A DNA stretch of 64,000 nt, from NCBI RefSeq assembly GCF_009914755.1, contig NC_060941.1; one strand, written 5' to 3'. A program made the translations under genes and the position numbers. This document shows positions 1 to 25,061 of this stretch, piece after piece (the stretch's first letter is position 1; each line of letters opens with the position of its first letter). The DNA is from the human T2T-CHM13v2.0 reference genome, Homo sapiens. Below the pieces are notes generated by a model, which searched no databases, was not told where the DNA came from, and saw only the letters and a program-made list of their open reading frames with translations.

Positions 1-292
<292 letters not shown>

Positions 293-445
293 TGTAGAAT
301 GGGGATGACAAGACAGGGCGGCGGAGATTGTGTTGGCGTGAAGCGAGGGAAACACTCGGCCGCAGGACAAAACTAAAACAGCAAGGGGGCACCGAAAGAC
401 TCAGTAGTCCACGTGAATATCCTGATTATGTTGTAGCTGAGATAA

Positions 446-1477
446 TGTAGGGTCCACCCCTACCGGGTCTGTGGGTTTTCTCTTCGCGTGTGTGCGGAGA
501 CGAGAGATCGAAGAGATAAAGACAGAAGACAAAGAGATAGGAAGAAAGACAGCTGGGCCCGGGGGACCACTGCCACCAAAGCGCGGAGACAGACAGGTAG
601 TGGCCCCGAGTGCCTGGAGGCGCTGCTATTTATTGTAGTCAAGGCAAGGGGGCAGGGTAAGGAGTGCCAGTCATCTCCAATGATCGATAGGTCACGCGAG
701 TCACGTGTCCACTGGACAGGGGGCCTTTCCCTTTGTGGTAGCCGAGGTGGAGAGGGAGGACAGCAAACGTCAGCGTTTCTTCTATGCACTTATCAGAAAG
801 ATCGAAGACTGTGGTACTCCTACTAGTTCTGCTACTGCTGTCTTCTAAGAACTTAAAAGGAGGAGCCAGGTGCACAGGCTGAACATGAAAGTGAACAAGG
901 AGCGTGACCACTGAAGCACAGCATCACAGGGAGACAGACGTTGGAGCCTCCGGATGACTGCGGGCCGGCCTGGCTAATGTCAGACCTCCCACAAGAGGTG
1001 GTGGAGCGGAGCGTTCTCTGTCTCCCCTGGAGAGAGGGAGATTCCCTTTCCGGGTCTGCTAAGTAACGGGTGCCTTCCCAGGCACTGGGGCCACCGCTAG
1101 ACCAAGGCCTGCTAAGTAACCAGGGCCTTCCCAGGCACTGGCATTACCGCTAGGCCAAGGAGCCCTCCAGCGGCCCTTCTCTGGGCGTGAATGAGGGCTC
1201 ACACTCTCGTCTTCTGGTCACCTCTCACTGTGGCCCTTCAGCTCCTAACTCTGTGTGGCCTGGTTTCCCCCAAGGTAATCATAATAGAACAGAGATCATT
1301 ATGGTAATAGAACAAAGAGTGATGCTACAAACTAATGATTAATAATGGTCAGATATAATCCTATCCGTTTCCTATCTCTAGTAAAACTTTTCTTATTCTA
1401 ATTATTTTCTTTGCTGTACTGGAACAGCTTGTGCCTTCAGGCTCTTGCCTGGGCACCTGGGTGGCTTGCGGCCCACA
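446..1477 (-). mobile_element. Solo LTR13 (HERV-K13/HML-4-like), unit 1
   Basis: TG...CA termini; minus strand begins TGTGGGCCGCAAGCCACCCAGGTGCC; perfect 6-bp TSD AGATAA at 440-445 and 1478-1483; homologous to the flanking proviral LTRs. Confidence 0.9.
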
Positions 1478-2786
1478 AGATAAGATATATTGCGTTGAAC
1501 TATAATTTATGTTGATTGCTGAATGATTTAGGGCGGGGGGGTGGGCACCCCCTGAAATTCTGCCCTGGAGGAGTGGCCTCACCCTAACCCTGGCCGTGGC
1601 TAATAATAAGGCCCACCTCTTAGGGCCGTGGAGTGAAATAAGTTTTCCAGGTAATGCGCAGTAGAGCCCTCAGCCCTCCGCTGAAGTTGCGTTAGGAAGG
1701 AGGAAGGGAGAGGTAAATGCTGAGCCCGCAGGCGGCAGTCTGTGCCTCGGAGAGAAACTTTATCCCAACCTTGCTGGGGGCCTTGACGCCCACCTTGCCC
1801 CAAGAGCACCCCGGCAGTCACCCCTGCCCTCTGGGGTCCTGCCACCCCGAGCCCGACCTTCCCCCTTTTCCCCCGCGCCGGGCCAATAGCCTCCTAACTG
1901 CGTCGTGCTCATCACCTTTGCGTCGTTTCTTCGCTCCACAAACGTTTACTGAGCGCCTTCCACACGCCAGGCGCCAGACTCGCGCGGGGAAACAGGGATA
2001 AGCACTGAGGAGGGGTCCCAGCCCTCAGCGATGGGATTTCAGAGCGGGAGATAAAGGGTTGCCCAGAAGGGTGGTGAGTGGAATAGCTGATATAAACAAC
2101 GGGGGCGCGATGAAATACACAGGAGGGCTGCTAGTCACATATGGGGCGGGTGCCGAGGGCCCTTGACTAAGGGAGGCTTCCTGCACGGGTGACACCCAAG
2201 CGGAGTCCTGACGACCTGCGTCAGAAGTAGCCAGGCGAGGAGGAGGGGAAAGGAATCCACGTCCCGAGCAGAGAGGCAGCGTTCCCTACACAGCCCAGGA
2301 CACGGTCCGCGCACAGAAGCCGCAGGAGACGCAGGCACAGGGGCTGGGGAGAATCCTTGCTGGGCCCTCGCCGCCTCCCTCTGCCGGGTGTCTGGTGCCA
2401 GCCTCCTGCCTGGCAGAGGAACTCCAGCCCCTGCTCCCGGAAGCCCCTCCAGGCCTTCGGCTTCCCTGACTGGGCATGGGCCCCTCGTCCCCTCGTCCCC
2501 TCGGGTACGGGGCCGGTCTCCCCGCCCGCGGGCGGCGAAGTAAAGGCCCAGCGCAGCCCGCGCTCCTGCCCTGGGGCCTCGTCTTTCTCCAGGAAAACGT
2601 GGACCGCTCTCCGCCGACAGGTCTCTTCCACAGACCCCTGTCGCCTTCGCCCCCGGTCTCTTCCGGTTCTGTCTTTTCGCTGGCTCGATACGAACAAGGA
2701 AGTCGCCCCCAGCGGAGCCCCGGCTCCCCCAGGCAGAGGCGGCCCCGGGGGCGGAGTCAACGGCGGAGGCCACGCCCTCTGTGAAA

Positions 2787-2977
2787 GGGCGGGGCATGCA
2801 AATTCGAAATGAAAGCCCGGGAACGCCGGAAGAAGCACGGGTGTAAGATTTCCCTTTTCAAAGGCGGAGAATAAGAAATCAGCCCGAGAGTGTAAGGGCG
2901 TCAATAGCGCTGTGGACGAGACAGAGGGAATGGGGCAAGGAGCGAGGCTGGGGCTCTCACCGCGACTTGAATGTGGA
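2787..2977 (+). promoter_or_regulatory. snRNA Pol II promoter: DSE (GC box plus octamer) and PSE, copy 1
   Basis: GGGCGGGGC-ATGCAAAT with octamer at 2796-2803 (about -221); PSE TCACCGCGACTTGAATGTGGA at 2957-2977 (-60 to -40). Confidence 0.93.
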
Positions 2978-3016
2978 TGAGAGTGGGACGGTGACGGCGG
3001 GCGCGAAGGCGAGCGC

Positions 3017-3204
3017 ATCGCTTCTCGGCCTTTTGGCTAAGATCAAGTGTAGTATCTGTTCTTATCAGTTTAATATCTGATACGTCCTCTATCCGAGGAC
3101 AATATATTAAATGGATTTTTGGAGCAGGGAGATGGAATAGGAGCTTGCTCCGTCCACTCCACGCATCGACCTGGTGTTGCAGTACCTCCAGGAACGGTGC
3201 ACCC
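3017..3204 (+). ncRNA. RNU2-1: U2 snRNA gene, copy 1 (n.160A>G)
   Basis: ATCGCTTCTCGGCCTTTTGGCTAAGATCAAGTGTAGTATC...; branch-recognition GTAGTA, Sm site ATTTTTGG, 3' end GGTGCACCC; GGAGCAGGGAG is the RNU2-1-type segment as I recall it. Confidence 0.98.
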
Positions 3205-3222
3205 CCTCCGGGGATACAACGT

Positions 3223-3238
3223 GTTTCCTAAAAGTAGA
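3223..3238 (+). terminator. snRNA 3' box (Integrator processing signal), copy 1
   Basis: GTTTCCTAAAAGTAGA fits GTTT-N-AAARNNAGA, about 19 nt after the U2 end. Confidence 0.9.
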
Positions 3239-3505
3239 GGGAGGTGAGAGACGGTAGCACCTGCGGGGCGGCTTGCACGCCGAGTGCCTGTGACGCGCCG
3301 GCTTGACTTAACTGCTTCCCTGAAGTACCGTGAGGTTCCTGATGTGCGGGCGGTAGACGGTAGGCTTATGCGGCACGCTTTCGTTTCCACCGTGGCTACT
3401 GCGCTTTGGGAAGGCCACGACCTCCTCCTTTGGGGAGGTCCTTAGGATCTCAGCTTGGCAGTCGAGTGGGTGGCGACCTTTTAAAGGAATGGGACCCACC
3501 CGGAG

Positions 3506-3516
3506 TTCTTCTTTCT

Positions 3517-3569
<53 letters not shown>

Positions 3570-3598
3570 GTCTCTCCGTCTCTCTGTGTCTGTCTCTG

Positions 3599-3638
<40 letters not shown>

Positions 3639-3697
3639 CTCTGTCTCTCTCTCTCTCTTTCCCCCCCCCTCCCCGCCTCTCCCTCGCTCTCTCTTTT
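3506..3697. repeat. Compound (CT)n/(GA)n microsatellite, copy 1
   Basis: About 190 bp of interrupted CT repeats ~300 bp downstream of U2. Confidence 0.97.
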
Positions 3698-4190
3698 GGT
3701 TTCCCCCACCCCCTCCCAAGTTCTGGGGTACATGTGCAGGACGTGCAGGTTTGGAACATAGGTACACGTGTGCCACGGTGCTTTGCTGCACCTATCCACC
3801 AGTCGTCTAGGTTTGAAGCCCCGCATGCGTTGGCTATTTGTCCTAATGCTCTCTCTCCCCTTGCCCCCCACGCCCCGTCAGGGCCCGGCGTGTGATGTTC
3901 CCCTCCCTGTGTCCCATGTGTTCTCGCTGTTCAACTCCCACTTAGGAGCGAGAACATGCGGTGTTTGGTTTTCGCTTCCTGTGTCAGTTTGCTGAGAATG
4001 AGGCCTTCCAGCTTCATCCACGTTCCCGCAGAGGTCATGAACTCATCCTTTTTTATGGCTGCGTAGTAATTCCATGCTGTATACGTGCCACACTTTCTTT
4101 ATCCAGCCTATCATTCATGGGCATTCGAGTTGGTTCCAAGTCTTTGCTATTGTAAATAGTGCTGCAGTAAACATACGTGTCCACGTGTCT
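3698..4190 (-). mobile_element. 5'-truncated L1PA-type 3' end; also at ~9845-10337, ~15994-16486, ~22136-22628
   Basis: AAGTTCTGGGGTACATGTGCAGGACGTGCAGGTTTG... and GTTGGTTCCAAGTCTTTGCTATTGTAAATAGTGCTGCA match the reverse of the L1 3' UTR and ORF2 end. Confidence 0.88.
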
Positions 4191-4631
4191 TCCTAGTAGG
4201 AACTTCTTCCTCTTCAGCCCGCTGAGTAGCTGGCACTTTAAGGCAGGTGCCAACGCACCGGCAGCAAGCTTCCTTTTTTGCCCGGGAAAAACTGAGGTGC
4301 AGGTAGTATAAGCCATTGATCACGGAACGCACAGGAGCAGAGCTCGAGTCCAAGCATCGTGGCTCCACCCGTCATGCTGGATGCATCTTTAGGCTCCGCT
4401 CTAGGTATGTGTATCCTTTACGGGATCAGCCACCGGCAGTTGCCTTGCGAGCACGATGACAAACCTCTGCCGGCTCTTTTGGGTCTCATCCCTGTATCTA
4501 TACGTTGCATCCCAACATAAAGACCGGAATGTTCCTTTCGCTGACCCAGTCTCTCACCCTTTCCAAACTCCAGAAATCTTGTCTGTCCTCGGAAGAACTC
4601 CCCCTGCTTCTTTCTCTAAAGGCTGTCTTCA

Positions 4632-4985
4632 GGCCGGGCACAGTGGGAGGATCGCTTGAGCCCAGAAGGCCGCAGTGAGGTGAGATCGCGCCATTGCACT
4701 GCAGCCCCCGGCGGCAGAGCCGGAGCCCCGTCTCGAAACAAACAAACAAAAACCAACCAACCAACCAACAAACAAACACAGACAAAGAAAGAAAGAGCCC
4801 AGGCAACCTAGTGAAAACCTGTTCGGGCTGGGACGTACCTGTACCCCAGCTGTTCCGGAGGCTGAGGCCAGGAGGATGGGTGGACGCTGGGAGGTGGATG
4901 CTGCAGTGAGCAGTGATTGCACCACTGCACTCCAGCCTGGGTGACAGAGCCAGACCCCGTCCCAAATAAATAAACATAAAAATAA
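4632..4985 (+). mobile_element. Two degenerate Alu monomers/fragments separated by an (AAAC/AACC)n tail; in each unit
   Basis: GGCCGGGCACAGTGGGAGGATCGCTTGAGCCC... and CACTGCACTCCAGCCTGGGTGACAGAGC with A-rich tails. Confidence 0.8.
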
Positions 4986-5494
4986 AGGAACCAGTTTGTA
5001 GAAAGCGGGAGAGGGTCCCATTGAACTTCAAGCCTTCGAGCAACAGCTGTGGCTGGACAGGTTGGACCAGCAGGCTGGAGCAGTCGCCATCTTGGCAGGG
5101 ATCATTGACCCTGATCTATTCGTCGGGAGGAGGAAGAGCTGATCTTACGCAGGGAGGGCAGGTGGACTATGTGTGGACTCTGGTGACCTGTTTGGGTGCC
5201 AGGTGTTACTCCCAGGGCCACCCGTAACTGTGAATGTGCAGGAACCCTGACTTGAGAAGGGCCTGGCCACGGGGGGCTTAGGCCCCTGGGGAATGAGAGT
5301 TTGGTTCCCGGTACCCAGGGAAACCACCAGCATCGGCAGAGGTGATAGCTGAGGAGGAGCGGGGATTTGGACGAGAGACACAGGATGAGTACCGGGGGGC
5401 AGCCCCGTGATCAACAACTGCTGCAAGAGGGGCCGTTTGTTCGACTCGCTAGTCTTCTGCGGCTCTATGCGGTACTAAAGAGCAGAAGACAGAA

Positions 5495-6342
<848 letters not shown>

Positions 6343-6590
6343 TCACACTTACAGCACAGCTCCATTAGAACTGACCACATTTCCAGGGCTCCCTGGATAC
6401 CTGTGGCTAGCGGCTGCCATACTACACCGTGCTGGGCTGTAGAATGGGGATGACAAGACAGGGCGGCGGAGATTGTGTTGGCGTGAAGCGAGGGAAACAC
6501 TCGGCCGCAGGACAAAACTAAAACAGCAAGGGGGCACCGAAAGACTCAGTAGTCCACGTGAATATCCTGATTATGTTGTAGCTGAGATAA

Positions 6591-7622
6591 TGTAGGGTCC
6601 ACCCCTACCGGGTCTGTGGGTTTTCTCTTCGCGTGTGTGCGGAGACGAGAGATCGAAGAGATAAAGACAGAAGACAAAGAGATAGGAAGAAAGACAGCTG
6701 GGCCCGGGGGACCACTGCCACCAAAGCGCGGAGACAGACAGGTAGTGGCCCCGAGTGCCTGGAGGCGCTGCTATTTATTGTAGTCAAGGCAAGGGGGCAG
6801 GGTAAGGAGTGCCAGTCATCTCCAATGATCGATAGGTCACGCGAGTCACGTGTCCACTGGACAGGGGGCCTTTCCCTTTGTGGTAGCCGAGGTGGAGAGG
6901 GAGGACAGCAAACGTCAGCGTTTCTTCTATGCACTTATCAGAAAGATCGAAGACTGTGGTACTCCTACTAGTTCTGCTACTGCTGTCTTCTAAGAACTTA
7001 AAAGGAGGAGCCAGGTGCACAGGCTGAACATGAAAGTGAACAAGGAGCGTGACCACTGAAGCACAGCATCACAGGGAGACAGACGTTGGAGCCTCCGGAT
7101 GACTGCGGGCCGGCCTGGCTAATGTCAGACCTCCCACAAGAGGTGGTGGAGCGGAGCGTTCTCTGTCTCCCCTGGAGAGAGGGAGATTCCCTTTCCGGGT
7201 CTGCTAAGTAACGGGTGCCTTCCCAGGCACTGGGGCCACCGCTAGACCAAGGCCTGCTAAGTAACCAGGGCCTTCCCAGGCACTGGCATTACCGCTAGGC
7301 CAAGGAGCCCTCCAGCGGCCCTTCTCTGGGCGTGAATGAGGGCTCACACTCTCGTCTTCTGGTCACCTCTCACTGTGGCCCTTCAGCTCCTAACTCTGTG
7401 TGGCCTGGTTTCCCCCAAGGTAATCATAATAGAACAGAGATCATTATGGTAATAGAACAAAGAGTGATGCTACAAACTAATGATTAATAATGGTCAGATA
7501 TAATCCTATCCGTTTCCTATCTCTAGTAAAACTTTTCTTATTCTAATTATTTTCTTTGCTGTACTGGAACAGCTTGTGCCTTCAGGCTCTTGCCTGGGCA
7601 CCTGGGTGGCTTGCGGCCCACA
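6591..7622 (-). mobile_element. Solo LTR13, unit 2
   Basis: Same sequence and AGATAA TSD. Confidence 0.9.
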
Positions 7623-8931
7623 AGATAAGATATATTGCGTTGAACTATAATTTATGTTGATTGCTGAATGATTTAGGGCGGGGGGGTGGGCACCCCCTGA
7701 AATTCTGCCCTGGAGGAGTGGCCTCACCCTAACCCTGGCCGTGGCTAATAATAAGGCCCACCTCTTAGGGCCGTGGAGTGAAATAAGTTTTCCAGGTAAT
7801 GCGCAGTAGAGCCCTCAGCCCTCCGCTGAAGTTGCGTTAGGAAGGAGGAAGGGAGAGGTAAATGCTGAGCCCGCAGGCGGCAGTCTGTGCCTCGGAGAGA
7901 AACTTTATCCCAACCTTGCTGGGGGCCTTGACGCCCACCTTGCCCCAAGAGCACCCCGGCAGTCACCCCTGCCCTCTGGGGTCCTGCCACCCCGAGCCCG
8001 ACCTTCCCCCTTTTCCCCCGCGCCGGGCCAATAGCCTCCTAACTGCGTCGTGCTCATCACCTTTGCGTCGTTTCTTCGCTCCACAAACGTTTACTGAGCG
8101 CCTTCCACACGCCAGGCGCCAGACTCGCGCGGGGAAACAGGGATAAGCACTGAGGAGGGGTCCCAGCCCTCAGCGATGGGATTTCAGAGCGGGAGATAAA
8201 GGGTTGCCCAGAAGGGTGGTGAGTGGAATAGCTGATATAAACAACGGGGGCGCGATGAAATACACAGGAGGGCTGCTAGTCACATATGGGGCGGGTGCCG
8301 AGGGCCCTTGACTAAGGGAGGCTTCCTGCACGGGTGACACCCAAGCGGAGTCCTGACGACCTGCGTCAGAAGTAGCCAGGCGAGGAGGAGGGGAAAGGAA
8401 TCCACGTCCCGAGCAGAGAGGCAGCGTTCCCTACACAGCCCAGGACACGGTCCGCGCACAGAAGCCGCAGGAGACGCAGGCACAGGGGCTGGGGAGAATC
8501 CTTGCTGGGCCCTCGCCGCCTCCCTCTGCCGGGTGTCTGGTGCCAGCCTCCTGCCTGGCAGAGGAACTCCAGCCCCTGCTCCCGGAAGCCCCTCCAGGCC
8601 TTCGGCTTCCCTGACTGGGCATGGGCCCCTCGTCCCCTCGTCCCCTCGGGTACGGGGCCGGTCTCCCCGCCCGCGGGCGGCGAAGTAAAGGCCCAGCGCA
8701 GCCCGCGCTCCTGCCCTGGGGCCTCGTCTTTCTCCAGGAAAACGTGGACCGCTCTCCGCCGACAGGTCTCTTCCACAGACCCCTGTCGCCTTCGCCCCCG
8801 GTCTCTTCCGGTTCTGTCTTTTCGCTGGCTCGATACGAACAAGGAAGTCGCCCCCAGCGGAGCCCCGGCTCCCCCAGGCAGAGGCGGCCCCGGGGGCGGA
8901 GTCAACGGCGGAGGCCACGCCCTCTGTGAAA

Positions 8932-9122
8932 GGGCGGGGCATGCAAATTCGAAATGAAAGCCCGGGAACGCCGGAAGAAGCACGGGTGTAAGATTTCCCT
9001 TTTCAAAGGCGGAGAATAAGAAATCAGCCCGAGAGTGTAAGGGCGTCAATAGCGCTGTGGACGAGACAGAGGGAATGGGGCAAGGAGCGAGGCTGGGGCT
9101 CTCACCGCGACTTGAATGTGGA
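8932..9122 (+). promoter_or_regulatory. U2 DSE and PSE, copy 2
   Basis: Octamer 8941-8948, PSE 9102-9122. Confidence 0.93.
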
Positions 9123-9161
9123 TGAGAGTGGGACGGTGACGGCGGGCGCGAAGGCGAGCGC

Positions 9162-9349
9162 ATCGCTTCTCGGCCTTTTGGCTAAGATCAAGTGTAGTAT
9201 CTGTTCTTATCAGTTTAATATCTGATACGTCCTCTATCCGAGGACAATATATTAAATGGATTTTTGGAGCAGGGAGATGGAATAGGAGCTTGCTCCGTCC
9301 ACTCCACGCATCGACCTGGTGTTGCAGTACCTCCAGGAACGGTGCACCC
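9162..9349 (+). ncRNA. RNU2-1: U2 snRNA gene, copy 2 (n.160A>G)
   Basis: Same sequence as copy 1. Confidence 0.98.
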
Positions 9350-9367
9350 CCTCCGGGGATACAACGT

Positions 9368-9383
9368 GTTTCCTAAAAGTAGA
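9368..9383 (+). terminator. snRNA 3' box, copy 2
   Basis: GTTTCCTAAAAGTAGA. Confidence 0.9.
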
Positions 9384-9650
9384 GGGAGGTGAGAGACGGT
9401 AGCACCTGCGGGGCGGCTTGCACGCCGAGTGCCTGTGACGCGCCGGCTTGACTTAACTGCTTCCCTGAAGTACCGTGAGGTTCCTGATGTGCGGGCGGTA
9501 GACGGTAGGCTTATGCGGCACGCTTTCGTTTCCACCGTGGCTACTGCGCTTTGGGAAGGCCACGACCTCCTCCTTTGGGGAGGTCCTTAGGATCTCAGCT
9601 TGGCAGTCGAGTGGGTGGCGACCTTTTAAAGGAATGGGACCCACCCGGAG

Positions 9651-9661
9651 TTCTTCTTTCT

Positions 9662-9716
<55 letters not shown>

Positions 9717-9745
9717 GTCTCTCCGTCTCTCTGTGTCTGTCTCTG

Positions 9746-9785
<40 letters not shown>

Positions 9786-9844
9786 CTCTGTCTCTCTCTC
9801 TCTCTTTCCCCCCCCCTCCCCGCCTCTCCCTCGCTCTCTCTTTT
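9651..9844. repeat. (CT)n microsatellite, copy 2 (+2 bp)
   Basis: Offset to copy 1 changes from 6145 to 6147 across the tract. Confidence 0.97.
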
Positions 9845-11810
9845 GGTTTCCCCCACCCCCTCCCAAGTTCTGGGGTACATGTGCAGGACGTGCAGGTTTG
9901 GAACATAGGTACACGTGTGCCACGGTGCTTTGCTGCACCTATCCACCAGTCGTCTAGGTTTGAAGCCCCGCATGCGTTGGCTATTTGTCCTAATGCTCTC
10001 TCTCCCCTTGCCCCCCACGCCCCGTCAGGGCCCGGCGTGTGATGTTCCCCTCCCTGTGTCCCATGTGTTCTCGCTGTTCAACTCCCACTTAGGAGCGAGA
10101 ACATGCGGTGTTTGGTTTTCGCTTCCTGTGTCAGTTTGCTGAGAATGAGGCCTTCCAGCTTCATCCACGTTCCCGCAGAGGTCATGAACTCATCCTTTTT
10201 TATGGCTGCGTAGTAATTCCATGCTGTATACGTGCCACACTTTCTTTATCCAGCCTATCATTCATGGGCATTCGAGTTGGTTCCAAGTCTTTGCTATTGT
10301 AAATAGTGCTGCAGTAAACATACGTGTCCACGTGTCTTCCTAGTAGGAACTTCTTCCTCTTCAGCCCGCTGAGTAGCTGGCACTTTAAGGCAGGTGCCAA
10401 CGCACCGGCAGCAAGCTTCCTTTTTTGCCCGGGAAAAACTGAGGTGCAGGTAGTATAAGCCATTGATCACGGAACGCACAGGAGCAGAGCTCGAGTCCAA
10501 GCATCGTGGCTCCACCCGTCATGCTGGATGCATCTTTAGGCTCCGCTCTAGGTATGTGTATCCTTTACGGGATCAGCCACCGGCAGTTGCCTTGCGAGCA
10601 CGATGACAAACCTCTGCCGGCTCTTTTGGGTCTCATCCCTGTATCTATACGTTGCATCCCAACATAAAGACCGGAATGTTCCTTTCGCTGACCCAGTCTC
10701 TCACCCTTTCCAAACTCCAGAAATCTTGTCTGTCCTCGGAAGAACTCCCCCTGCTTCTTTCTCTAAAGGCTGTCTTCAGGCCGGGCACAGTGGGAGGATC
10801 GCTTGAGCCCAGAAGGCCGCAGTGAGGTGAGATCGCGCCATTGCACTGCAGCCCCCGGCGGCAGAGCCGGAGCCCCGTCTCGAAACAAACAAACAAAAAC
10901 CAACCAACCAACCAACAAACAAACACAGACAAAGAAAGAAAGAGCCCAGGCAACCTAGTGAAAACCTGTTCGGGCTGGGACGTACCTGTACCCCAGCTGT
11001 TCCGGAGGCTGAGGCCAGGAGGATGGGTGGACGCTGGGAGGTGGATGCTGCAGTGAGCAGTGATTGCACCACTGCACTCCAGCCTGGGTGACAGAGCCAG
11101 ACCCCGTCCCAAATAAATAAACATAAAAATAAAGGAACCAGTTTGTAGAAAGCGGGAGAGGGTCCCATTGAACTTCAAGCCTTCGAGCAACAGCTGTGGC
11201 TGGACAGGTTGGACCAGCAGGCTGGAGCAGTCGCCATCTTGGCAGGGATCATTGACCCTGATCTATTCGTCGGGAGGAGGAAGAGCTGATCTTACGCAGG
11301 GAGGGCAGGTGGACTATGTGTGGACTCTGGTGACCTGTTTGGGTGCCAGGTGTTACTCCCAGGGCCACCCGTAACTGTGAATGTGCAGGAACCCTGACTT
11401 GAGAAGGGCCTGGCCACGGGGGGCTTAGGCCCCTGGGGAATGAGAGTTTGGTTCCCGGTACCCAGGGAAACCACCAGCATCGGCAGAGGTGATAGCTGAG
11501 GAGGAGCGGGGATTTGGACGAGAGACACAGGATGAGTACCGGGGGGCAGCCCCGTGATCAACAACTGCTGCAAGAGGGGCCGTTTGTTCGACTCGCTAGT
11601 CTTCTGCGGCTCTATGCGGTACTAAAGAGCAGAAGACAGAAGATACAAAAACCACAAAAAGTAGCCGGGCGTGGTGCTGCCCGTCAATAATCCCAGCTAC
11701 TCGGGAGGCTGAGACAGGAGAATCGCTTGAACCCGGGAGGCGGAAGTTTCAGCGAGCCGAGATCACGCCGTTGCAGTCCAACCTGAGCGTCCGAGCGAGA
11801 CTCTATCTCA

Positions 11811-12489
<679 letters not shown>

Positions 12490-12737
12490 TCACACTTACA
12501 GCACAGCTCCATTAGAACTGACCACATTTCCAGGGCTCCCTGGATACCTGTGGCTAGCGGCTGCCATACTACACCGTGCTGGGCTGTAGAATGGGGATGA
12601 CAAGACAGGGCGGCGGAGATTGTGTTGGCGTGAAGCGAGGGAAACACTCGGCCGCAGGACAAAACTAAAACAGCAAGGGGGCACCGAAAGACTCAGTAGT
12701 CCACGTGAATATCCTGATTATGTTGTAGCTGAGATAA

Positions 12738-13769
12738 TGTAGGGTCCACCCCTACCGGGTCTGTGGGTTTTCTCTTCGCGTGTGTGCGGAGACGAGAGAT
12801 CGAAGAGATAAAGACAGAAGACAAAGAGATAGGAAGAAAGACAGCTGGGCCCGGGGGACCACTGCCACCAAAGCGCGGAGACAGACAGGTAGTGGCCCCG
12901 AGTGCCTGGAGGCGCTGCTATTTATTGTAGTCAAGGCAAGGGGGCAGGGTAAGGAGTGCCAGTCATCTCCAATGATCGATAGGTCACGCGAGTCACGTGT
13001 CCACTGGACAGGGGGCCTTTCCCTTTGTGGTAGCCGAGGTGGAGAGGGAGGACAGCAAACGTCAGCGTTTCTTCTATGCACTTATCAGAAAGATCGAAGA
13101 CTGTGGTACTCCTACTAGTTCTGCTACTGCTGTCTTCTAAGAACTTAAAAGGAGGAGCCAGGTGCACAGGCTGAACATGAAAGTGAACAAGGAGCGTGAC
13201 CACTGAAGCACAGCATCACAGGGAGACAGACGTTGGAGCCTCCGGATGACTGCGGGCCGGCCTGGCTAATGTCAGACCTCCCACAAGAGGTGGTGGAGCG
13301 GAGCGTTCTCTGTCTCCCCTGGAGAGAGGGAGATTCCCTTTCCGGGTCTGCTAAGTAACGGGTGCCTTCCCAGGCACTGGGGCCACCGCTAGACCAAGGC
13401 CTGCTAAGTAACCAGGGCCTTCCCAGGCACTGGCATTACCGCTAGGCCAAGGAGCCCTCCAGCGGCCCTTCTCTGGGCGTGAATGAGGGCTCACACTCTC
13501 GTCTTCTGGTCACCTCTCACTGTGGCCCTTCAGCTCCTAACTCTGTGTGGCCTGGTTTCCCCCAAGGTAATCATAATAGAACAGAGATCATTATGGTAAT
13601 AGAACAAAGAGTGATGCTACAAACTAATGATTAATAATGGTCAGATATAATCCTATCCGTTTCCTATCTCTAGTAAAACTTTTCTTATTCTAATTATTTT
13701 CTTTGCTGTACTGGAACAGCTTGTGCCTTCAGGCTCTTGCCTGGGCACCTGGGTGGCTTGCGGCCCACA
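12738..13769 (-). mobile_element. Solo LTR13, unit 3
   Basis: Same sequence and AGATAA TSD. Confidence 0.9.
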
Positions 13770-15078
13770 AGATAAGATATATTGCGTTGAACTATAATTT
13801 ATGTTGATTGCTGAATGATTTAGGGCGGGGGGGTGGGCACCCCCTGAAATTCTGCCCTGGAGGAGTGGCCTCACCCTAACCCTGGCCGTGGCTAATAATA
13901 AGGCCCACCTCTTAGGGCCGTGGAGTGAAATAAGTTTTCCAGGTAATGCGCAGTAGAGCCCTCAGCCCTCCGCTGAAGTTGCGTTAGGAAGGAGGAAGGG
14001 AGAGGTAAATGCTGAGCCCGCAGGCGGCAGTCTGTGCCTCGGAGAGAAACTTTATCCCAACCTTGCTGGGGGCCTTGACGCCCACCTTGCCCCAAGAGCA
14101 CCCCGGCAGTCACCCCTGCCCTCTGGGGTCCTGCCACCCCGAGCCCGACCTTCCCCCTTTTCCCCCGCGCCGGGCCAATAGCCTCCTAACTGCGTCGTGC
14201 TCATCACCTTTGCGTCGTTTCTTCGCTCCACAAACGTTTACTGAGCGCCTTCCACACGCCAGGCGCCAGACTCGCGCGGGGAAACAGGGATAAGCACTGA
14301 GGAGGGGTCCCAGCCCTCAGCGATGGGATTTCAGAGCGGGAGATAAAGGGTTGCCCAGAAGGGTGGTGAGTGGAATAGCTGATATAAACAACGGGGGCGC
14401 GATGAAATACACAGGAGGGCTGCTAGTCACATATGGGGCGGGTGCCGAGGGCCCTTGACTAAGGGAGGCTTCCTGCACGGGTGACACCCAAGCGGAGTCC
14501 TGACGACCTGCGTCAGAAGTAGCCAGGCGAGGAGGAGGGGAAAGGAATCCACGTCCCGAGCAGAGAGGCAGCGTTCCCTACACAGCCCAGGACACGGTCC
14601 GCGCACAGAAGCCGCAGGAGACGCAGGCACAGGGGCTGGGGAGAATCCTTGCTGGGCCCTCGCCGCCTCCCTCTGCCGGGTGTCTGGTGCCAGCCTCCTG
14701 CCTGGCAGAGGAACTCCAGCCCCTGCTCCCGGAAGCCCCTCCAGGCCTTCGGCTTCCCTGACTGGGCATGGGCCCCTCGTCCCCTCGTCCCCTCGGGTAC
14801 GGGGCCGGTCTCCCCGCCCGCGGGCGGCGAAGTAAAGGCCCAGCGCAGCCCGCGCTCCTGCCCTGGGGCCTCGTCTTTCTCCAGGAAAACGTGGACCGCT
14901 CTCCGCCGACAGGTCTCTTCCACAGACCCCTGTCGCCTTCGCCCCCGGTCTCTTCCGGTTCTGTCTTTTCGCTGGCTCGATACGAACAAGGAAGTCGCCC
15001 CCAGCGGAGCCCCGGCTCCCCCAGGCAGAGGCGGCCCCGGGGGCGGAGTCAACGGCGGAGGCCACGCCCTCTGTGAAA

Positions 15079-15269
15079 GGGCGGGGCATGCAAATTCGAA
15101 ATGAAAGCCCGGGAACGCCGGAAGAAGCACGGGTGTAAGATTTCCCTTTTCAAAGGCGGAGAATAAGAAATCAGCCCGAGAGTGTAAGGGCGTCAATAGC
15201 GCTGTGGACGAGACAGAGGGAATGGGGCAAGGAGCGAGGCTGGGGCTCTCACCGCGACTTGAATGTGGA
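15079..15269 (+). promoter_or_regulatory. U2 DSE and PSE, copy 3
   Basis: Octamer 15088-15095, PSE 15249-15269. Confidence 0.93.
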
Positions 15270-15308
15270 TGAGAGTGGGACGGTGACGGCGGGCGCGAAG
15301 GCGAGCGC

Positions 15309-15496
15309 ATCGCTTCTCGGCCTTTCGGCTAAGATCAAGTGTAGTATCTGTTCTTATCAGTTTAATATCTGATACGTCCTCTATCCGAGGACAATATATT
15401 AAATGGATTTTTGGAGCAGGGAGATGGAATAGGAGCTTGCTCCGTCCACTCCACGCATCGACCTGGTGTTGCAGTACCTCCAGGAACGGTGCACCC
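15309..15496 (+). ncRNA. RNU2-1: U2 snRNA gene, copy 3 (n.18T>C, n.160A>G)
   Basis: Full U2 sequence; GGCCTTTCGGC with C at 15326. Confidence 0.98.
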
Positions 15497-15514
15497 CCTC
15501 CGGGGATACAACGT

Positions 15515-15530
15515 GTTTCCTAAAAGTAGA
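15515..15530 (+). terminator. snRNA 3' box, copy 3
   Basis: GTTTCCTAAAAGTAGA. Confidence 0.9.
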
Positions 15531-15797
15531 GGGAGGTGAGAGACGGTAGCACCTGCGGGGCGGCTTGCACGCCGAGTGCCTGTGACGCGCCGGCTTGACT
15601 TAACTGCTTCCCTGAAGTACCGTGAGGTTCCTGATGTGCGGGCGGTAGACGGTAGGCTTATGCGGCACGCTTTCGTTTCCACCGTGGCTACTGCGCTTTG
15701 GGAAGGCCACGACCTCCTCCTTTGGGGAGGTCCTTAGGATCTCAGCTTGGCAGTCGAGTGGGTGGCGACCTTTTAAAGGAATGGGACCCACCCGGAG

Positions 15798-15808
15798 TTC
15801 TTCTTTCT

Positions 15809-15865
<57 letters not shown>

Positions 15866-15894
15866 GTCTCTCCGTCTCTCTGTGTCTGTCTCTG

Positions 15895-15934
<40 letters not shown>

Positions 15935-15993
15935 CTCTGTCTCTCTCTCTCTCTTTCCCCCCCCCTCCCCGCCTCTCCCTCGCTCTCTCTTTT
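15798..15993. repeat. (CT)n microsatellite, copy 3 (+4 bp)
   Basis: Offset changes from 12292 to 12296. Confidence 0.97.
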
Positions 15994-17958
15994 GGTTTCC
16001 CCCACCCCCTCCCAAGTTCTGGGGTACATGTGCAGGACGTGCAGGTTTGGAACATAGGTACACGTGTGCCACGGTGCTTTGCTGCACCTATCCACCAGTC
16101 GTCTAGGTTTGAAGCCCCGCATGCGTTGGCTATTTGTCCTAATGCTCTCTCTCCCCTTGCCCCCCACGCCCCGTCAGGGCCCGGCGTGTGATGTTCCCCT
16201 CCCTGTGTCCCATGTGTTCTCGCTGTTCAACTCCCACTTAGGAGCGAGAACATGCGGTGTTTGGTTTTCGCTTCCTGTGTCAGTTTGCTGAGAATGAGGC
16301 CTTCCAGCTTCATCCACGTTCCCGCAGAGGTCATGAACTCATCCTTTTTTATGGCTGCGTAGTAATTCCATGCTGTATACGTGCCACACTTTCTTTATCC
16401 AGCCTATCATTCATGGGCATTCGAGTTGGTTCCAAGTCTTTGCTATTGTAAATAGTGCTGCAGTAAACATACGTGTCCACGTGTCTTCCTAGTAGGAACT
16501 TCTTCCTCTTCAGCCCGCTGAGTAGCTGGCACTTTAAGGCAGGTGCCAACGCACCGGCAGCAAGCTTCCTTTTTTGCCCGGGAAAAACTGAGGTGCAGGT
16601 AGTATAAGCCATTGATCACGGAACGCACAGGAGCAGAGCTCGAGTCCAAGCATCGTGGCTCCACCCGTCATGCTGGATGCATCTTTAGGCTCCGCTCTAG
16701 GTATGTGTATCCTTTACGGGATCAGCCACCGGCAGTTGCCTTGCGAGCACGATGACAAACCTCTGCCGGCTCTTTTGGGTCTCATCCCTGTATCTATACG
16801 TTGCATCCCAACATAAAGACCGGAATGTTCCTTTCGCTGACCCAGTCTCTCACCCTTTCCAAACTCCAGAAATCTTGTCTGTCCTCGGAAGAACTCCCCC
16901 TGCTTCTTTCTCTAAAGGCTGTCTTCAGGCCGGGCACAGTGGGAGGATCGCTTGAGCCCAGAAGGCCGCAGTGAGGTGAGATCGCGCCATTGCACTGCAG
17001 CCCCCGGCGGCAGAGCCGGAGCCCCGTCTCGAAACAAACAAACAAAAACCAACCAACCAACCAACAAACAAACACAGACAAAGAAAGAAAGAGCCCAGGC
17101 AACCTAGTGAAAACCTGTTCGGGCTGGGACGTACCTGTACCCCAGCTGTTCCGGAGGCTGAGGCCAGGAGGATGGGTGGACGCTGGGAGGTGGATGCTGC
17201 AGTGAGCAGTGATTGCACCACTGCACTCCAGCCTGGGTGACAGAGCCAGACCCCGTCCCAAATAAATAAACATAAAAATAAAGGAACCAGTTTGTAGAAA
17301 GCGGGAGAGGGTCCCATTGAACTTCAAGCCTTCGAGCAACAGCTGTGGCTGGACAGGTTGGACCAGCAGGCTGGAGCAGTCGCCATCTTGGCAGGGATCA
17401 TTGACCCTGATCTATCGTCGGGAGGAGGAAGAGCTTATCTTACGCAGGGAGGGCAGGTGGACTATGTGTGGACTCTGGTGACCTGTTTGGGTGCCAGGTG
17501 TTACTCCCAGGGCCACCCGTAACTGTGAATGTGCAGGAACCCTGACTTGAGAAGGGCCTGGCCACGGGGGGCTTAGGCCCCTGGGGAATGAGAGTTTGGT
17601 TCCCGGTACCCAGGGAAACCACCAGCATCGGCAGAGGTGATAGCTGAGGAGGAGCGGGGATTTGGACGAGAGACACAGGATGAGTACCGGGGGGCAGCCC
17701 CGTGATCAACAACTGCTGCAAGAGGGGCCGTTTGTTCGACTCGCTAGTCTTCTGCGGCTCTATGCGGTACTAAAGAGCAGAAGACAGAACATACAAAAAC
17801 CACAAAAAGTAGCCGGGCGTGGTGCTGCCCGTCAATAATCCCAGCTACTCGGGAGGCTGAGACAGGAGAATCGCTTGAACCCGGGAGGCGGAAGTTTCAG
17901 CGAGCCGAGATCACGCCGTTGCAGTCCAACCTGAGCGTCCGAGCGAGACTCTATCTCA

Positions 17959-18637
<679 letters not shown>

Positions 18638-18885
18638 TCACACTTACAGCACAGCTCCATTAGAACTGACCACATTTCCAGGGCTCCCTGGATACCTGTG
18701 GCTAGCGGCTGCCATACTACACCGTGCTGGGCTGTAGAATGGGGATGACAAGACAGGGCGGCGGAGATTGTGTTGGCGTGAAGCGAGGGAAACACTCGGC
18801 CGCAGGACAAAACTAAAACAGCAAGGGGGCACCGAAAGACTCAGTAGTCCACGTGAATATCCTGATTATGTTGTAGCTGAGATAA

Positions 18886-19917
18886 TGTAGGGTCCACCCC
18901 TACCGGGTCTGTGGGTTTTCTCTTCGCGTGTGTGCGGAGACGAGAGATCGAAGAGATAAAGACAGAAGACAAAGAGATAGGAAGAAAGACAGCTGGGCCC
19001 GGGGGACCACTGCCACCAAAGCGCGGAGACAGACAGGTAGTGGCCCCGAGTGCCTGGAGGCGCTGCTATTTATTGTAGTCAAGGCAAGGGGGCAGGGTAA
19101 GGAGTGCCAGTCATCTCCAATGATCGATAGGTCACGCGAGTCACGTGTCCACTGGACAGGGGGCCTTTCCCTTTGTGGTAGCCGAGGTGGAGAGGGAGGA
19201 CAGCAAACGTCAGCGTTTCTTCTATGCACTTATCAGAAAGATCGAAGACTGTGGTACTCCTACTAGTTCTGCTACTGCTGTCTTCTAAGAACTTAAAAGG
19301 AGGAGCCAGGTGTACAGGCTGAACATGAAAGTGAACAAGGAGCGTGACCACTGAAGCACAGCATCACAGGGAGACAGACGTTGGAGCCTCCGGATGACTG
19401 CGGGCCGGCCTGGCTAATGTCAGACCTCCCACAAGAGGTGGTGGAGCGGAGCGTTCTCTGTCTCCCCTGGAGAGAGGGAGATTCCCTTTCCGGGTCTGCT
19501 AAGTAACGGGTGCCTTCCCAGGCACTGGGGCCACCGCTAGACCAAGGCCTGCTAAGTAACCAGGGCCTTCCCAGGCACTGGCATTACCGCTAGGCCAAGG
19601 AGCCCTCCAGCGGCCCTTCTCTGGGCGTGAATGAGGGCTCACACTCTCGTCTTCTGGTCACCTCTCACTGTGGCCCTTCAGCTCCTAACTCTGTGTGGCC
19701 TGGTTTCCCCCAAGGTAATCATAATAGAACAGAGATCATTATGGTAATAGAACAAAGAGTGATGCTACAAACTAATGATTAATAATGGTCAGATATAATC
19801 CTATCCGTTTCCTATCTCTAGTAAAACTTTTCTTATTCTAATTATTTTCTTTGCTGTACTGGAACAGCTTGTGCCTTCAGGCTCTTGCCTGGGCACCTGG
19901 GTGGCTTGCGGCCCACA
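18886..19917 (-). mobile_element. Solo LTR13, unit 4
   Basis: Same sequence and AGATAA TSD. Confidence 0.9.
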
Positions 19918-21226
19918 AGATAAGATATATTGCGTTGAACTATAATTTATGTTGATTGCTGAATGATTTAGGGCGGGGGGGTGGGCACCCCCTGAAATTC
20001 TGCCCTGGAGGAGTGGCCTCACCCTAACCCTGGCCGTGGCTAATAATAAGGCCCACCTCTTAGGGCCGTGGAGTGAAATAAGTTTTCCAGGTAATGCGCA
20101 GTAGAGCCCTCAGCCCTCCGCTGAAGTTGCGTTAGGAAGGAGGAAGGGAGAGGTAAATGCTGAGCCCGCAGGCGGCAGTCTGTGCCTCGGAGAGAAACTT
20201 TATCCCAACCTTGCTGGGGGCCTTGACGCCCACCTTGCCCCAAGAGCACCCCGGCAGTCACCCCTGCCCTCTGGGGTCCTGCCACCCCGAGCCCGACCTT
20301 CCCCCTTTTCCCCCGCGCCGGGCCAATAGCCTCCTAACTGCGTCGTGCTCATCACCTTTGCGTCGTTTCTTCGCTCCACAAACGTTTACTGAGCGCCTTC
20401 CACACGCCAGGCGCCAGACTCGCGCGGGGAAACAGGGATAAGCACTGAGGAGGGGTCCCAGCCCTCAGCGATGGGATTTCAGAGCGGGAGATAAAGGGTT
20501 GCCCAGAAGGGTGGTGAGTGGAATAGCTGATATAAACAACGGGGGCGCGATGAAATACACAGGAGGGCTGCTAGTCACATATGGGGCGGGTGCCGAGGGC
20601 CCTTGACTAAGGGAGGCTTCCTGCACGGGTGACACCCAAGCGGAGTCCTGACGACCTGCGTCAGAAGTAGCCAGGCGAGGAGGAGGGGAAAGGAATCCAC
20701 GTCCCGAGCAGAGAGGCAGCGTTCCCTACACAGCCCAGGACACGGTCCGCGCACAGAAGCCGCAGGAGACGCAGGCACAGGGGCTGGGGAGAATCCTTGC
20801 TGGGCCCTCGCCGCCTCCCTCTGCCGGGTGTCTGGTGCCAGCCTCCTGCCTGGCAGAGGAACTCCAGCCCCTGCTCCCGGAAGCCCCTCTAGGCCTTCGG
20901 CTTCCCTGACTGGGCATGGGCCCCTCGTCCCCTCGTCCCCTCGGGTACGGGGCCGGTCTCCCCGCCCGCGGGCGGCGAAGTAAAGGCCCAGCGCAGCCCG
21001 CGCTCCTGCCCTGGGGCCTCGTCTTTCTCCAGGAAAACGTGGACCGCTCTCCGCCGACAGGTCTCTTCCACAGACCCCTGTCGCCTTCGCCCCCGGTCTC
21101 TTCCGGTTCTGTCTTTTCGCTGGCTCGATACGAACAAGGAAGTCGCCCCCAGCGGAGCCCCGGCTCCCCCAGGCAGAGGCGGCCCCGGGGGCGGAGTCAA
21201 CGGCGGAGGCCACGCCCTCTGTGAAA

Positions 21227-21417
21227 GGGCGGGGCATGCAAATTCGAAATGAAAGCCCGGGAACGCCGGAAGAAGCACGGGTGTAAGATTTCCCTTTTCA
21301 AAGGCGGAGAATAAGAAATCAGCCCGAGAGTGTAAGGGCGTCAATAGCGCTGTGGACGAGACAGAGGGAATGGGGCAAGGAGCGAGGCTGGGGCTCTCAC
21401 CGCGACTTGAATGTGGA
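21227..21417 (+). promoter_or_regulatory. U2 DSE and PSE, copy 4
   Basis: Octamer 21236-21243, PSE 21397-21417. Confidence 0.93.
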
Positions 21418-21456
21418 TGAGAGTGGGACGGTGACGGCGGGCGCGAAGGCGAGCGC

Positions 21457-21644
21457 ATCGCTTCTCGGCCTTTCGGCTAAGATCAAGTGTAGTATCTGTT
21501 CTTATCAGTTTAATATCTGATACGTCCTCTATCCGAGGACAATATATTAAATGGATTTTTGGAGCAGGGAGATGGAATAGGAGCTTGCTCCGTCCACTCC
21601 ACGCATCGACCTGGTGTTGCAGTACCTCCAGGAACGGTGCACCC
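21457..21644 (+). ncRNA. RNU2-1: U2 snRNA gene, copy 4, terminal (n.18T>C, n.160A>G)
   Basis: Full U2 sequence; GGCCTTTCGGC with C at 21474. Confidence 0.98.
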
Positions 21645-21662
21645 CCTCCGGGGATACAACGT

Positions 21663-21678
21663 GTTTCCTAAAAGTAGA
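21663..21678 (+). terminator. snRNA 3' box, copy 4
   Basis: GTTTCCTAAAAGTAGA. Confidence 0.9.
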
Positions 21679-21945
21679 GGGAGGTGAGAGACGGTAGCAC
21701 CTGCGGGGCGGCTTGCACGCCGAGTGCCTGTGACGCGCCGGCTTGACTTAACTGCTTCCCTGAAGTACCGTGAGGTTCCTGATGTGCGGGCGGTAGACGG
21801 TAGGCTTATGCGGCACGCTTTCGTTTCCACCGTGGCTACTGCGCTTTGGGAAGGCCACGACCTCCTCCTTTGGGGAGGTCCTTAGGATCTCAGCTTGGCA
21901 GTCGAGTGGGTGGCGACCTTTTAAAGGAATGGGACCCACCCGGAG

Positions 21946-21956
21946 TTCTTCTTTCT

Positions 21957-22011
<55 letters not shown>

Positions 22012-22040
22012 GTCTCTCCGTCTCTCTGTGTCTGTCTCTG

Positions 22041-22074
<34 letters not shown>

Positions 22075-22135
22075 CTCTCTCTGTCTCTCTCTCTCTTTCC
22101 CCCCCCCTCCCCGCCTCTCCCTCGCTCTCTCTTTT
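21946..22135. repeat. (CT)n microsatellite, copy 4 (-2 bp)
   Basis: Offset changes from 18440 to 18438. Confidence 0.97.
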
Positions 22136-24100: not shown

Positions 24101-25041
<941 letters not shown>

Positions 25042-25061
25042 TTATGTTGTAGCTGAGATAA

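What the first reader, a model, noticed from the sequence alone, without database searches (positions are those of the whole stretch)
3170..3192. All four U2 genes carry G at n.160, the first base of the U2B''/U2A' recognition motif in loop IV
Seen: hairpin IV reads CCTGG-T-GTTGCAGTACC-T-CCAGG in every copy (G at 3176, 9321, 15468, 21616). Established, from memory: canonical human U2 has AUUGCAG here, the RRM-binding heptamer for U2B''/SNRPB2, related to the U1A AUUGCAC site. Inference: G160 lies opposite C170 just inside the U159-U171 pair, so it could form a new G-C pair that extends the stem and shrinks the loop. Promoters and 3' boxes are intact, so concerted evolution may have spread an expressible variant U2 that short-read data would miss.
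Basis: partly seen in the sequence, partly recalled or inferred. Interest (0 to 1): 0.8.

Follow-up and report, generated by a model that had tools for sequence, protein, structure and literature searches.

The report
U2 snRNA gene variant A160G block
Five of the nine tandem U2 spliceosomal RNA genes on this human chromosome carry a young single-base change at the first base of the loop that binds the U2B'' protein; the change is real and already in print, and its effect on binding is untested.

Summary
All four U2 genes in the window read CCTGGTGTTGCAGTACCTCCAGG, with G at n.160.

The window shows only part of the array. The whole chr17 RNU2 array has nine genes: four canonical A160 copies upstream of the window, then five G160 copies. 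The last two G160 copies also carry T18C.

G160 is derived and young:
- 36 of 37 readable dispersed U2 loci have A, including RNU2-2.
- The first G160 repeat differs from an A160 repeat by that one base across 6,009 non-microsatellite columns.
- From -565 to +252 the nine repeats differ only at n.18, n.160 and one private site, +253. By sequence, the variant genes look as expressible as the canonical ones.

The same 4+3+2 layout is printed in Scholten, Segel and Haig (bioRxiv 2025). That preprint does not connect it to U2B''.

Published biochemistry points both ways. A1G costs U1A 5 kcal/mol on U1 stem-loop II. The reconstructed U2B'' ancestor barely notices position 1.

Folding predicts G160-C169/U161-A168 rather than G160-C170.

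Most likely this is a nearly neutral or mildly weakening polymorphism spread by intra-array duplication.

The parts
3017..3207 (+). U2 snRNA gene, array unit 6 of 9, variant G160
   Evidence: RF00004 hit, 196.2 bits, model 1-192. Differs from canonical L001 only at n.160 over 188 nt.
9162..9352 (+). U2 snRNA gene, array unit 7 of 9, variant G160
   Evidence: RF00004 hit, 196.2 bits. Identical to unit 6 across 551 aligned bases.
15309..15499 (+). U2 snRNA gene, array unit 8 of 9, variant C18 + G160
   Evidence: RF00004 hit, 193 bits. T18C is at column 318 of alignment A1. Differences from canonical are n.18 and n.160 only.
21457..21647 (+). U2 snRNA gene, array unit 9 of 9 (distal end), variant C18 + G160
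   Evidence: RF00004 hit, 193 bits.
3170..3192 (+). Stem-loop IV hairpin tip. Stem n.154-158/172-176, U159.U171 closing pair, 11-nt loop GUUGCAGUACC with G160 at 3176. Same element at 9315-9337, 15462-15484 and 21610-21632.
   Evidence: Exact matches. Rfam structure line. Folds.
15326..15326 (+). T18C, last base of the UUUU loop of stem-loop I. Also at 21474 in unit 9.
   Evidence: pattern TTTTTTTCC across units 1-9.
2796..2803 (+). Octamer ATGCAAAT at -221..-214, the position of the snRNA distal sequence element. The element name is recalled, not tested.
   Evidence: Read directly. Invariant in all nine units.
2957..2976 (+). TCACCGCGACTTGAATGTGG at -60..-41, the position of the proximal sequence element. 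The consensus is recalled, not tested.
   Evidence: Read directly. Invariant in all nine units.
3223..3238 (+). GTTTCCTAAAAGTAGA, the 3'-box-like element 19 nt past n.188. The consensus is recalled, not tested.
   Evidence: Read directly. Invariant in all nine units.
1..25774 (+). Distal part of the 6.1-kb RNU2 tandem array: the end of unit 5, then units 6-9. Similarity to the repeat ends at about 25774. The array begins at window -29836.
   Evidence: blastn of one unit against the array: 99.05-100% identity, spacings 6145-6187 bp.

Best explanation
A160G is a real, derived, recent germline variant of the RNU2-1 gene. It arose once in a single 6.1-kb repeat. It was then copied into neighbouring repeats by unequal exchange or duplication within the array, which is concerted evolution caught half-way. 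On this haplotype that left four canonical genes followed by five G160 genes. A second change, T18C, arose on a G160 repeat and now sits in the last two copies.

The variant genes keep the same promoter and 3' flank as the canonical genes. They are therefore expected to be transcribed, giving U2 snRNA whose stem-loop IV loop starts with G instead of A.

My inference on function: U2A'/U2B'' still binds this RNA, at most several-fold more weakly. Two things could weaken it: part of the free loop closing up, and loss of the A(N6)-Asp contact. On that reading the variant is neutral or mildly hypomorphic, and it is buffered by the four canonical copies and by RNU2-2.

Shown here: sequence, array layout, derived state, young age, identical flanks. 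Inferred: expression, binding, neutrality.
For: Layout:
- Nine RF00004 hits on C17 with 6145-6187 bp spacing: four at 197.4 bits (A160), three at 196.2 (G160), two at 193 (C18 + G160).
- Pattern AAAAGGGGG at n.160 and TTTTTTTCC at n.18.
- Linked sites at +538 and +629 (units 5-8), +1336 (units 6-9) and +4002 (units 8-9) give a nested block structure.
- A single boundary has chance 2/126 = 0.016. The 4/3/2 block order has chance 6/1260 = 0.005.

Derived state:
- 21 of 21 dispersed loci have A at n.160, and 15 of 16. That is 36 of 37 readable. Three further loci gave no alignment over n.160.
- The exact G160 16-mer occurs 5 times in the genome, all in the array.

Young age:
- Unit 5 (G160) differs from unit 3 (A160) by 1 SNV across 6,009 non-microsatellite columns.

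Expressibility:
- Only n.18, n.160 and +253 (unit 4) vary between -565 and +252.

Tolerance:
- The Rfam model penalises G by only 1.2 bits (197.4 against 196.2). Its consensus letter there is a lower-case 'a'.
- Delaney et al. 2014 (passages and section 10): the reconstructed U2B''-lineage ancestor Urb-Vb loses only about +0.3-0.6 kcal/mol when loop position 1 of SLII is mutated (A1C) or deleted. C. elegans SLIV lacks A1. [quoted passage not shown]

Modest structural cost:
- The fold gains 1.4 kcal/mol (-7.0 against -5.6).
- P(n.160 paired) rises from 0.29 to 0.91 in the full-length RNA.

The same layout is reported from the same assembly by Scholten et al. (section 9 read in full).
Against: - In the paralogous U1A-SL2 complex, the same change (A1G) raised KD from 3e-10 to 1.4e-6 M, a loss of 5.0 kcal/mol. 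This was not caused by the extra G-C pair, because the A1G/C10A double mutant bound equally poorly (Benitex and Baranger 2007, passages).
- In the human U2A'-U2B''-SLIV crystal structure, as re-described by Weber et al. 2018 (passage), the N6 amino group of this adenine hydrogen-bonds Asp19 and the base stacks on the U.U closing pair. G cannot make that bond.
- A1 is described as conserved in all vertebrate SLIV loops, which argues for constraint.
- The Urb-Vb measurements used SLII, A1C or a deletion rather than A1G, a reconstructed protein, and no U2A'.
- No expression data, raw reads or second human haplotype could be examined here. The printed report uses the same assembly, so it is not independent.
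Confidence: 0.6

Rival explanations
1. G160 U2 is a loss-of-function or strong hypomorph. U2A'/U2B'' fails to bind loop IV, the particle matures poorly and the RNA is degraded. On this reading the haplotype has only four effective RNU2-1 genes, and U2 homeostasis plus RNU2-2 make up the difference.
For: - A1G costs 5.0 kcal/mol in U1A-SL2, through steric and electrostatic clashes from the guanine donor/acceptor pattern.
- There is an A(N6)-Asp19 contact in the human ternary complex.
- A1 is conserved in vertebrate SLIV.
- The free G160 loop is predicted to hide n.160/161 in about 90% of molecules.
- RNU2-2 variants in SLIII/SLIV are argued in print to act as null alleles through impaired biogenesis (PMC13083260 passage).
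- Loss of U2-2 is compensated by up-regulation of U2-1 (Kosmyna et al. 2020 passage).
Against: - The U2B''-lineage ancestor is almost insensitive to position 1.
- C. elegans SLIV lacks A1.
- In the SLIV complexes the loop-3 arginine that repels G in U1A is described as contacting other groups: the G17 phosphate in fly and U8 in human.
- The predicted fold penalty is only about 1.3-1.6 kcal/mol.
- A null allele expanding to 5 of 9 copies is possible by drift in an array, but it has no positive support.
Confidence: 0.22
2. The G at n.160 is an assembly or polishing artefact in a near-identical tandem array. The true array would be uniform A160, or would hold fewer G copies.
For: - The repeats are at least 99% identical, which is a hard target for assembly.
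- GRCh38 copies of RNU2-1 are described in print as identical (PMC13083235 passage).
- The only printed report of G160 rests on the same assembly.
Against: - G160 sits in five adjacent units in phase with other unit-specific variants at +538, +629, +1336 and +4002.
- It contains a nested sub-block carrying T18C.
- Random consensus errors would not produce a nested, contiguous haplotype structure (chance 0.005-0.016).
Confidence: 0.04
3. G160 is an adaptive or haplotype-specific functional variant. It would be kept on one of the two long BRCA1-RNU2 haplotype classes because a U2 with altered U2A'/U2B'' affinity or stem-loop IV stability changes snRNP assembly or splicing.
For: - This assembly carries the LGRG haplotype and GRCh38 carries PEKS. 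Recombination across RND2-RNU2 is reported as very rare, and balancing selection has been proposed (Scholten et al. abstract and passages).
- The GRCh38 copies are called identical.
Against: - No population data for n.160 were found.
- The variant is not fixed even within this array (5 of 9).
- It looks very young (1 SNV from an A160 unit).
- Arrays turn over roughly once per 200 generations (Tessereau 2014, as cited), so a partial block is what drift would give.
Confidence: 0.1

Closest known systems
Canonical RNU2-1 gene of the chr17q21 6.1-kb tandem array
   Same: Same locus and repeat unit. Identical from -565 to +252 except n.160 (and n.18 in two copies). Full-length RF00004 match. Branch-site-pairing GUAGUA and the Sm-site AUUUUUG are read intact.
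   Different: G instead of A at n.160, loop position 1 of stem-loop IV. Two copies also have C instead of U at n.18, in the stem-loop I loop.
RNU2-2 (chr11), the other abundant expressed human U2 gene
   Same: [quoted passage not shown] Here it reads C170U. The one-base loop IV difference is stated by Kosmyna et al. 2020.
   Different: [quoted passage not shown] It also differs at n.108-111 and n.187. It is a single-copy gene, not part of the array.
U1 snRNA stem-loop II A1G mutant (Benitex and Baranger 2007)
   Same: Same substitution at the same loop position of the homologous AUUGCA(C/G) motif. The same question of an extra G-C pair across the loop was raised and tested there.
   Different: A different protein (U1A, with no U2A' partner), a C-G closing pair rather than U.U, and a 10-nt rather than 11-nt loop. 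It is a laboratory mutant, not a natural allele.
C. elegans U2 stem-loop IV (loop UUGCACUGC)
   Same: A natural U2 whose loop IV lacks the position-1 adenine yet is still bound by U1A/U2B'' family proteins in vivo (Delaney 2014 passage).
   Different: The base is deleted rather than replaced by G. The worm proteins are redundant and differ from human U2B''.

Membership tests
U2 spliceosomal snRNA gene (Rfam RF00004) | Covariance-model score above the gathering threshold over the full model | tested here: met
   196.2, 196.2, 193 and 193 bits against a threshold of 46, model positions 1-192 of 192.
U2 spliceosomal snRNA gene (Rfam RF00004) | Intact branch-point-recognition sequence (GUAGUA) and Sm site (AUUUUUG). 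The motif names are recalled. | tested here: met
   Both are read in 3017-3207. The only differences from canonical copies are n.160, plus or minus n.18.
RNU2-1 tandem-array gene (active copy) | Lies in the 6.1-kb head-to-tail repeat on chr17q21 | tested here: met
   Nine units, spacing 6145-6187 bp, 99.05-100% identity.
RNU2-1 tandem-array gene (active copy) | snRNA-type promoter (octamer/DSE, PSE) and 3' box | tested here: met
   The elements are read at 2796-2803, 2957-2976 and 3223-3238, with consensus recalled. All are invariant across the A160 and G160 units.
RNU2-1 tandem-array gene (active copy) | Transcribed and assembled into a U2 snRNP | not testable with these tools
   No RNA or chromatin data are reachable here.
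U2A'/U2B'' binding site (stem-loop IV loop AUUGCAGUACC) | Adenine at loop position 1 | tested here: not met
   G at 3176, 9321, 15468 and 21616.
U2A'/U2B'' binding site (stem-loop IV loop AUUGCAGUACC) | Loop positions 2-11 UUGCAGUACC, an 11-nt loop, and the U.U closing pair | tested here: met
   Identical to canonical copies L001-L004. The consensus is as printed in Delaney 2014 and Weber 2018.
U2A'/U2B'' binding site (stem-loop IV loop AUUGCAGUACC) | Binds U2B'' in the presence of U2A' | not testable with these tools
   The complex predictor offered takes proteins and small ligands only. No job was sent.

The most novel reading that the evidence does not exclude
G160 marks one class of the non-recombining BRCA1-RNU2 haplotypes and is common in people. 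On this reading it gives a U2 snRNA with clearly reduced U2A'/U2B'' affinity. Individuals would then differ in the fraction of U2 snRNPs that lack or exchange this protein pair. That would be a hidden, heritable spliceosome variant, invisible to short reads. It would also be a natural test of why position 1 of loop IV is conserved in vertebrates.
Probability: 0.1. Interest if true: 0.7.

Novelty: already known. Interest (0 to 1): 0.35.

Why it matters
RNU2-1 is usually described as an array of identical genes (passages). On this haplotype, 5 of 9 genes differ at a base described as conserved in every vertebrate stem-loop IV. That base touches U2B'' in the crystal structure.

Delaney et al. 2014 could not explain why this adenine is conserved, and they predicted it might mutate. 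A human haplotype where more than half of the U2-1 genes carry G is a ready-made test of that question.

It also bears on the clinical reading of stem-loop IV variants in RNU2-2, and on counting functional U2 gene dosage. If the variant is neutral, the practical lesson is smaller: RNU2-1 copies are not all identical, and reference transcript sets should include G160 and C18/G160 forms.

Tried and rejected
- Other human haplotypes or contaminant copies. A degenerate 23-mer (A or G at n.160) found 0 matches in genome contigs and 0 in viral contigs, so no second human haplotype could be examined.
- Print searches for the variant. 'A160G' with 'U2 snRNA' found 0 papers. 'n.160A' with 'RNU2' found 0 papers. 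The searches 'RNU2-1/T2T/variant', 'RNU2/pangenome/long-read/tandem array' and the snRNA-variant searches turned up no population or expression data for n.160.
- Papers read in passages that had nothing on n.160 or loop IV of RNU2-1: Mabin et al. 2021, PMC12667742, PMC8921233, and the three 2026 RNU2-2 papers. The stem IV variants named in the RNU2-2 text are n.152G>A and n.174A>C/n.176G>C, not loop positions. Their supplementary tables were not opened and may list loop variants.
- An old expressed G160 lineage seeding retro-pseudogenes. Rejected: only 1 of 37 readable dispersed loci has G (L044 on C8, 88% identical to U2), which fits a chance transition.
Rejected in favour of G160-C169/U161-A168. 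One row pairs U161 with C169, which is not a standard pair; I ignored it. The hairpin rows were sliced one base off and were replaced. The full-length rows stand.
- An A160-U170 pair in U2-2 as a covariation-like parallel. Rejected: P 0.035.

Full report
**What is there.** The window begins inside the human chr17q21 RNU2 tandem array.
- Four full-length U2 snRNA genes lie at 3017-3207, 9162-9352, 15309-15499 and 21457-21647 on the + strand. They score 196.2, 196.2, 193 and 193 bits against Rfam RF00004, whose gathering score is 46.
No match appeared in 100 shuffles.
- With n.1 = 3017, the G at 3176 is n.160.
- The four genes plus 300 bp on each side are identical except for T18C in the last two.

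**The whole locus.** A search of the window's own genome with RF00004 scored 48 candidates. Nine of them sit on C17 with 6145-6187 bp spacing.
- Four copies upstream of the window (window -27835, -21648, -15477, -9318) score 197.4 bits and read CCTGGTATTGCAG..., with A160.
- The fifth copy (window -3145) and the four window copies read CCTGGTGTTGCAG..., with G160.
- The order along the array is therefore AAAAGGGGG at n.160 and TTTTTTTCC at n.18.
- The exact G160 16-mer occurs five times in the genome, all in this array.
- 'All four' describes the window. The locus is 4 canonical : 3 G160 : 2 C18+G160.

**Derived and young.**
- Among the other loci, 21 of 21 in the first batch have A at n.160. 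This includes RNU2-2 on C11 and RNU2-4P.
- In the second batch of 19 fetched stretches, 16 aligned over n.160. Of these, 15 have A and 1 has G (L044 on C8, 88% identical). Three gave no alignment there.
- That is 36 of 37 with A. One G in old, diverged pseudogenes is what chance gives.
- I aligned the nine repeats, each taken from -2000 to the next unit's -2001.
- In that alignment, unit 5, the first G160 unit, differs from unit 3, an A160 unit, by one SNV across 6,009 ungapped columns outside the CT microsatellite.
- Other variants form nested blocks: +538 and +629 in units 5-8, +1336 in units 6-9, +1817 and +3110 in units 6-8, and n.18 and +4002 in units 8-9.
- Under random placement, a single A/G boundary has probability 2/126. 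The 4/3/2 block order has probability 6/1260.
- This pattern is what stepwise duplication or unequal exchange within one array produces. It argues against consensus error.

**Expressibility.** Between -565 and +252 the nine units vary only at n.18, n.160 and one private site, +253 in unit 4.
- The octamer at 2796-2803, the PSE-like element at 2957-2976 and the 3'-box-like element at 3223-3238 are read. Their names and consensus are recalled, not tested. They are identical in A160 and G160 units.
- Expression itself was not testable.

- They read this as contiguous expansion of variants.
- They print the n.18 change as C-to-T. The sequence shows U in canonical copies and C in the last two.
- Their text has no occurrence of U2B, SNRPB2 or stem-loop IV.
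- I found no paper on it. The searches found 0 papers, and searches found nothing relevant.

**Structure of the free RNA.** ViennaRNA gives the G160 hairpin -7.0 kcal/mol against -5.6 for A160.
- The gain comes from G160-C169 plus U161-A168 (P 0.78).
On its own it equals the open loop, at -5.5 against -5.6.
- In the full-length RNA, P(n.160 paired) rises from 0.29 to 0.91.
- Opening this structure would cost roughly 1.3-1.6 kcal/mol. I infer that from the ensemble and open-loop energies.
- Nearest-neighbour rules are weak for large protein-binding loops.

**Protein recognition, from papers.** The evidence splits.

For a strong effect:
- A1G in U1 stem-loop II raised the U1A KD from 3e-10 to 1.4e-6 M, a loss of 5.0 kcal/mol.
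- The authors tested the extra G-C pair idea with A1G/C10A and found it was not the cause (Benitex and Baranger 2007; abstract and passages).
- Weber et al. 2018 (passages) describe this adenine in the human U2A'-U2B''-SLIV structure. Its N6 bonds Asp19, and the base stacks on the U.U closing pair.
- Delaney et al. 2014 say A1 is kept in all vertebrate SLIV loops.

For a weak effect:
- The same Delaney paper (passages and section 10) finds that the reconstructed U2B''-branch ancestor loses only about +0.3-0.6 kcal/mol with A1C or a deleted A1 in SLII, against +2.3-2.4 for the U1A-branch ancestor.
- It notes that C. elegans SLIV lacks A1.
- Weber et al. place the loop-3 arginine, which repels G in U1A, on other groups in the SLIV complexes.
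- The eukaryote-wide Rfam model penalises G by only 1.2 bits.

No one has measured A1G on SLIV with U2B'' and U2A', as far as my searches reach.

**Verdict.** The sequence fact is known.
- Most likely (0.6) this is a young, drifting, near-neutral or mildly weakening variant spread by intra-array duplication.
- A real binding defect (0.22) is not excluded, and it is the point worth an experiment.
- An artefact is unlikely (0.04).
- A haplotype-linked functional variant is possible but unsupported (0.1).

**Limits.** I could not reach raw reads, RNA data, a second human haplotype or any ape sequence. The supplements of the RNU2-2 papers were not opened.

Noticed in passing
window 15326 and 21474 (n.18 of units 8 and 9): T18C turns the UUUU loop of stem-loop I into UUUC in the last two genes. 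It costs 3.2 bits in the Rfam model (196.2 to 193). All other U2 loci checked have T here except one with G. The preprint prints this change as C-to-T, the reverse of what the sequence shows.
   Followed up: partly
L005 (G000:C11:62831016-62831206, - strand; RNU2-2): RNU2-2 differs from canonical U2-1 at n.108-111, n.170 (C to U, in loop IV opposite n.160) and n.187. Three to five pseudogenes share T170 (L013, L016, L039, L046, L051), perhaps because they are copies of U2-2-type RNA.
   Followed up: partly
L044 (G000:C8:81017177-81017365, - strand): This is the only dispersed U2-like locus with G at n.160 (hairpin CCTCGTGTTGCAGTACCTCCAGA, 88% identical to U2). I read it as a chance transition in an old pseudogene.
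   Followed up: partly
window 32642-32690, - strand: Rfam RF01097 (Gag/pro ribosomal frameshift site) hit at 46.2 bits against a threshold of 43. It lies in the retroviral stretch just distal to the array, which the preprint calls ERVK13p. Noted only.
   Followed up: no
about +504 to +630 after each U2 gene (for example window 3520-3650): The CT/polypyrimidine microsatellite is the main source of length differences between units (indels at +504, +550 and +624-627). It also carries the block-linked SNVs at +538 and +629.
   Followed up: partly
window 21457-25774 (unit 9): The terminal unit has many private SNVs (11-18 differences from the other units, which differ from each other by 1-10). This fits edge repeats escaping homogenisation. 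It shares G160 and C18 with unit 8 but has the A160-block alleles at +538 and +629, which hints at a past exchange or conversion.
   Followed up: partly
window -3145 (G000:C17:44140855-44141045): The fifth array gene (G160, 196.2 bits) is missing from the hub's list of nearest annotated snRNA genes. That list jumps from -9318 to 3017.
   Followed up: no
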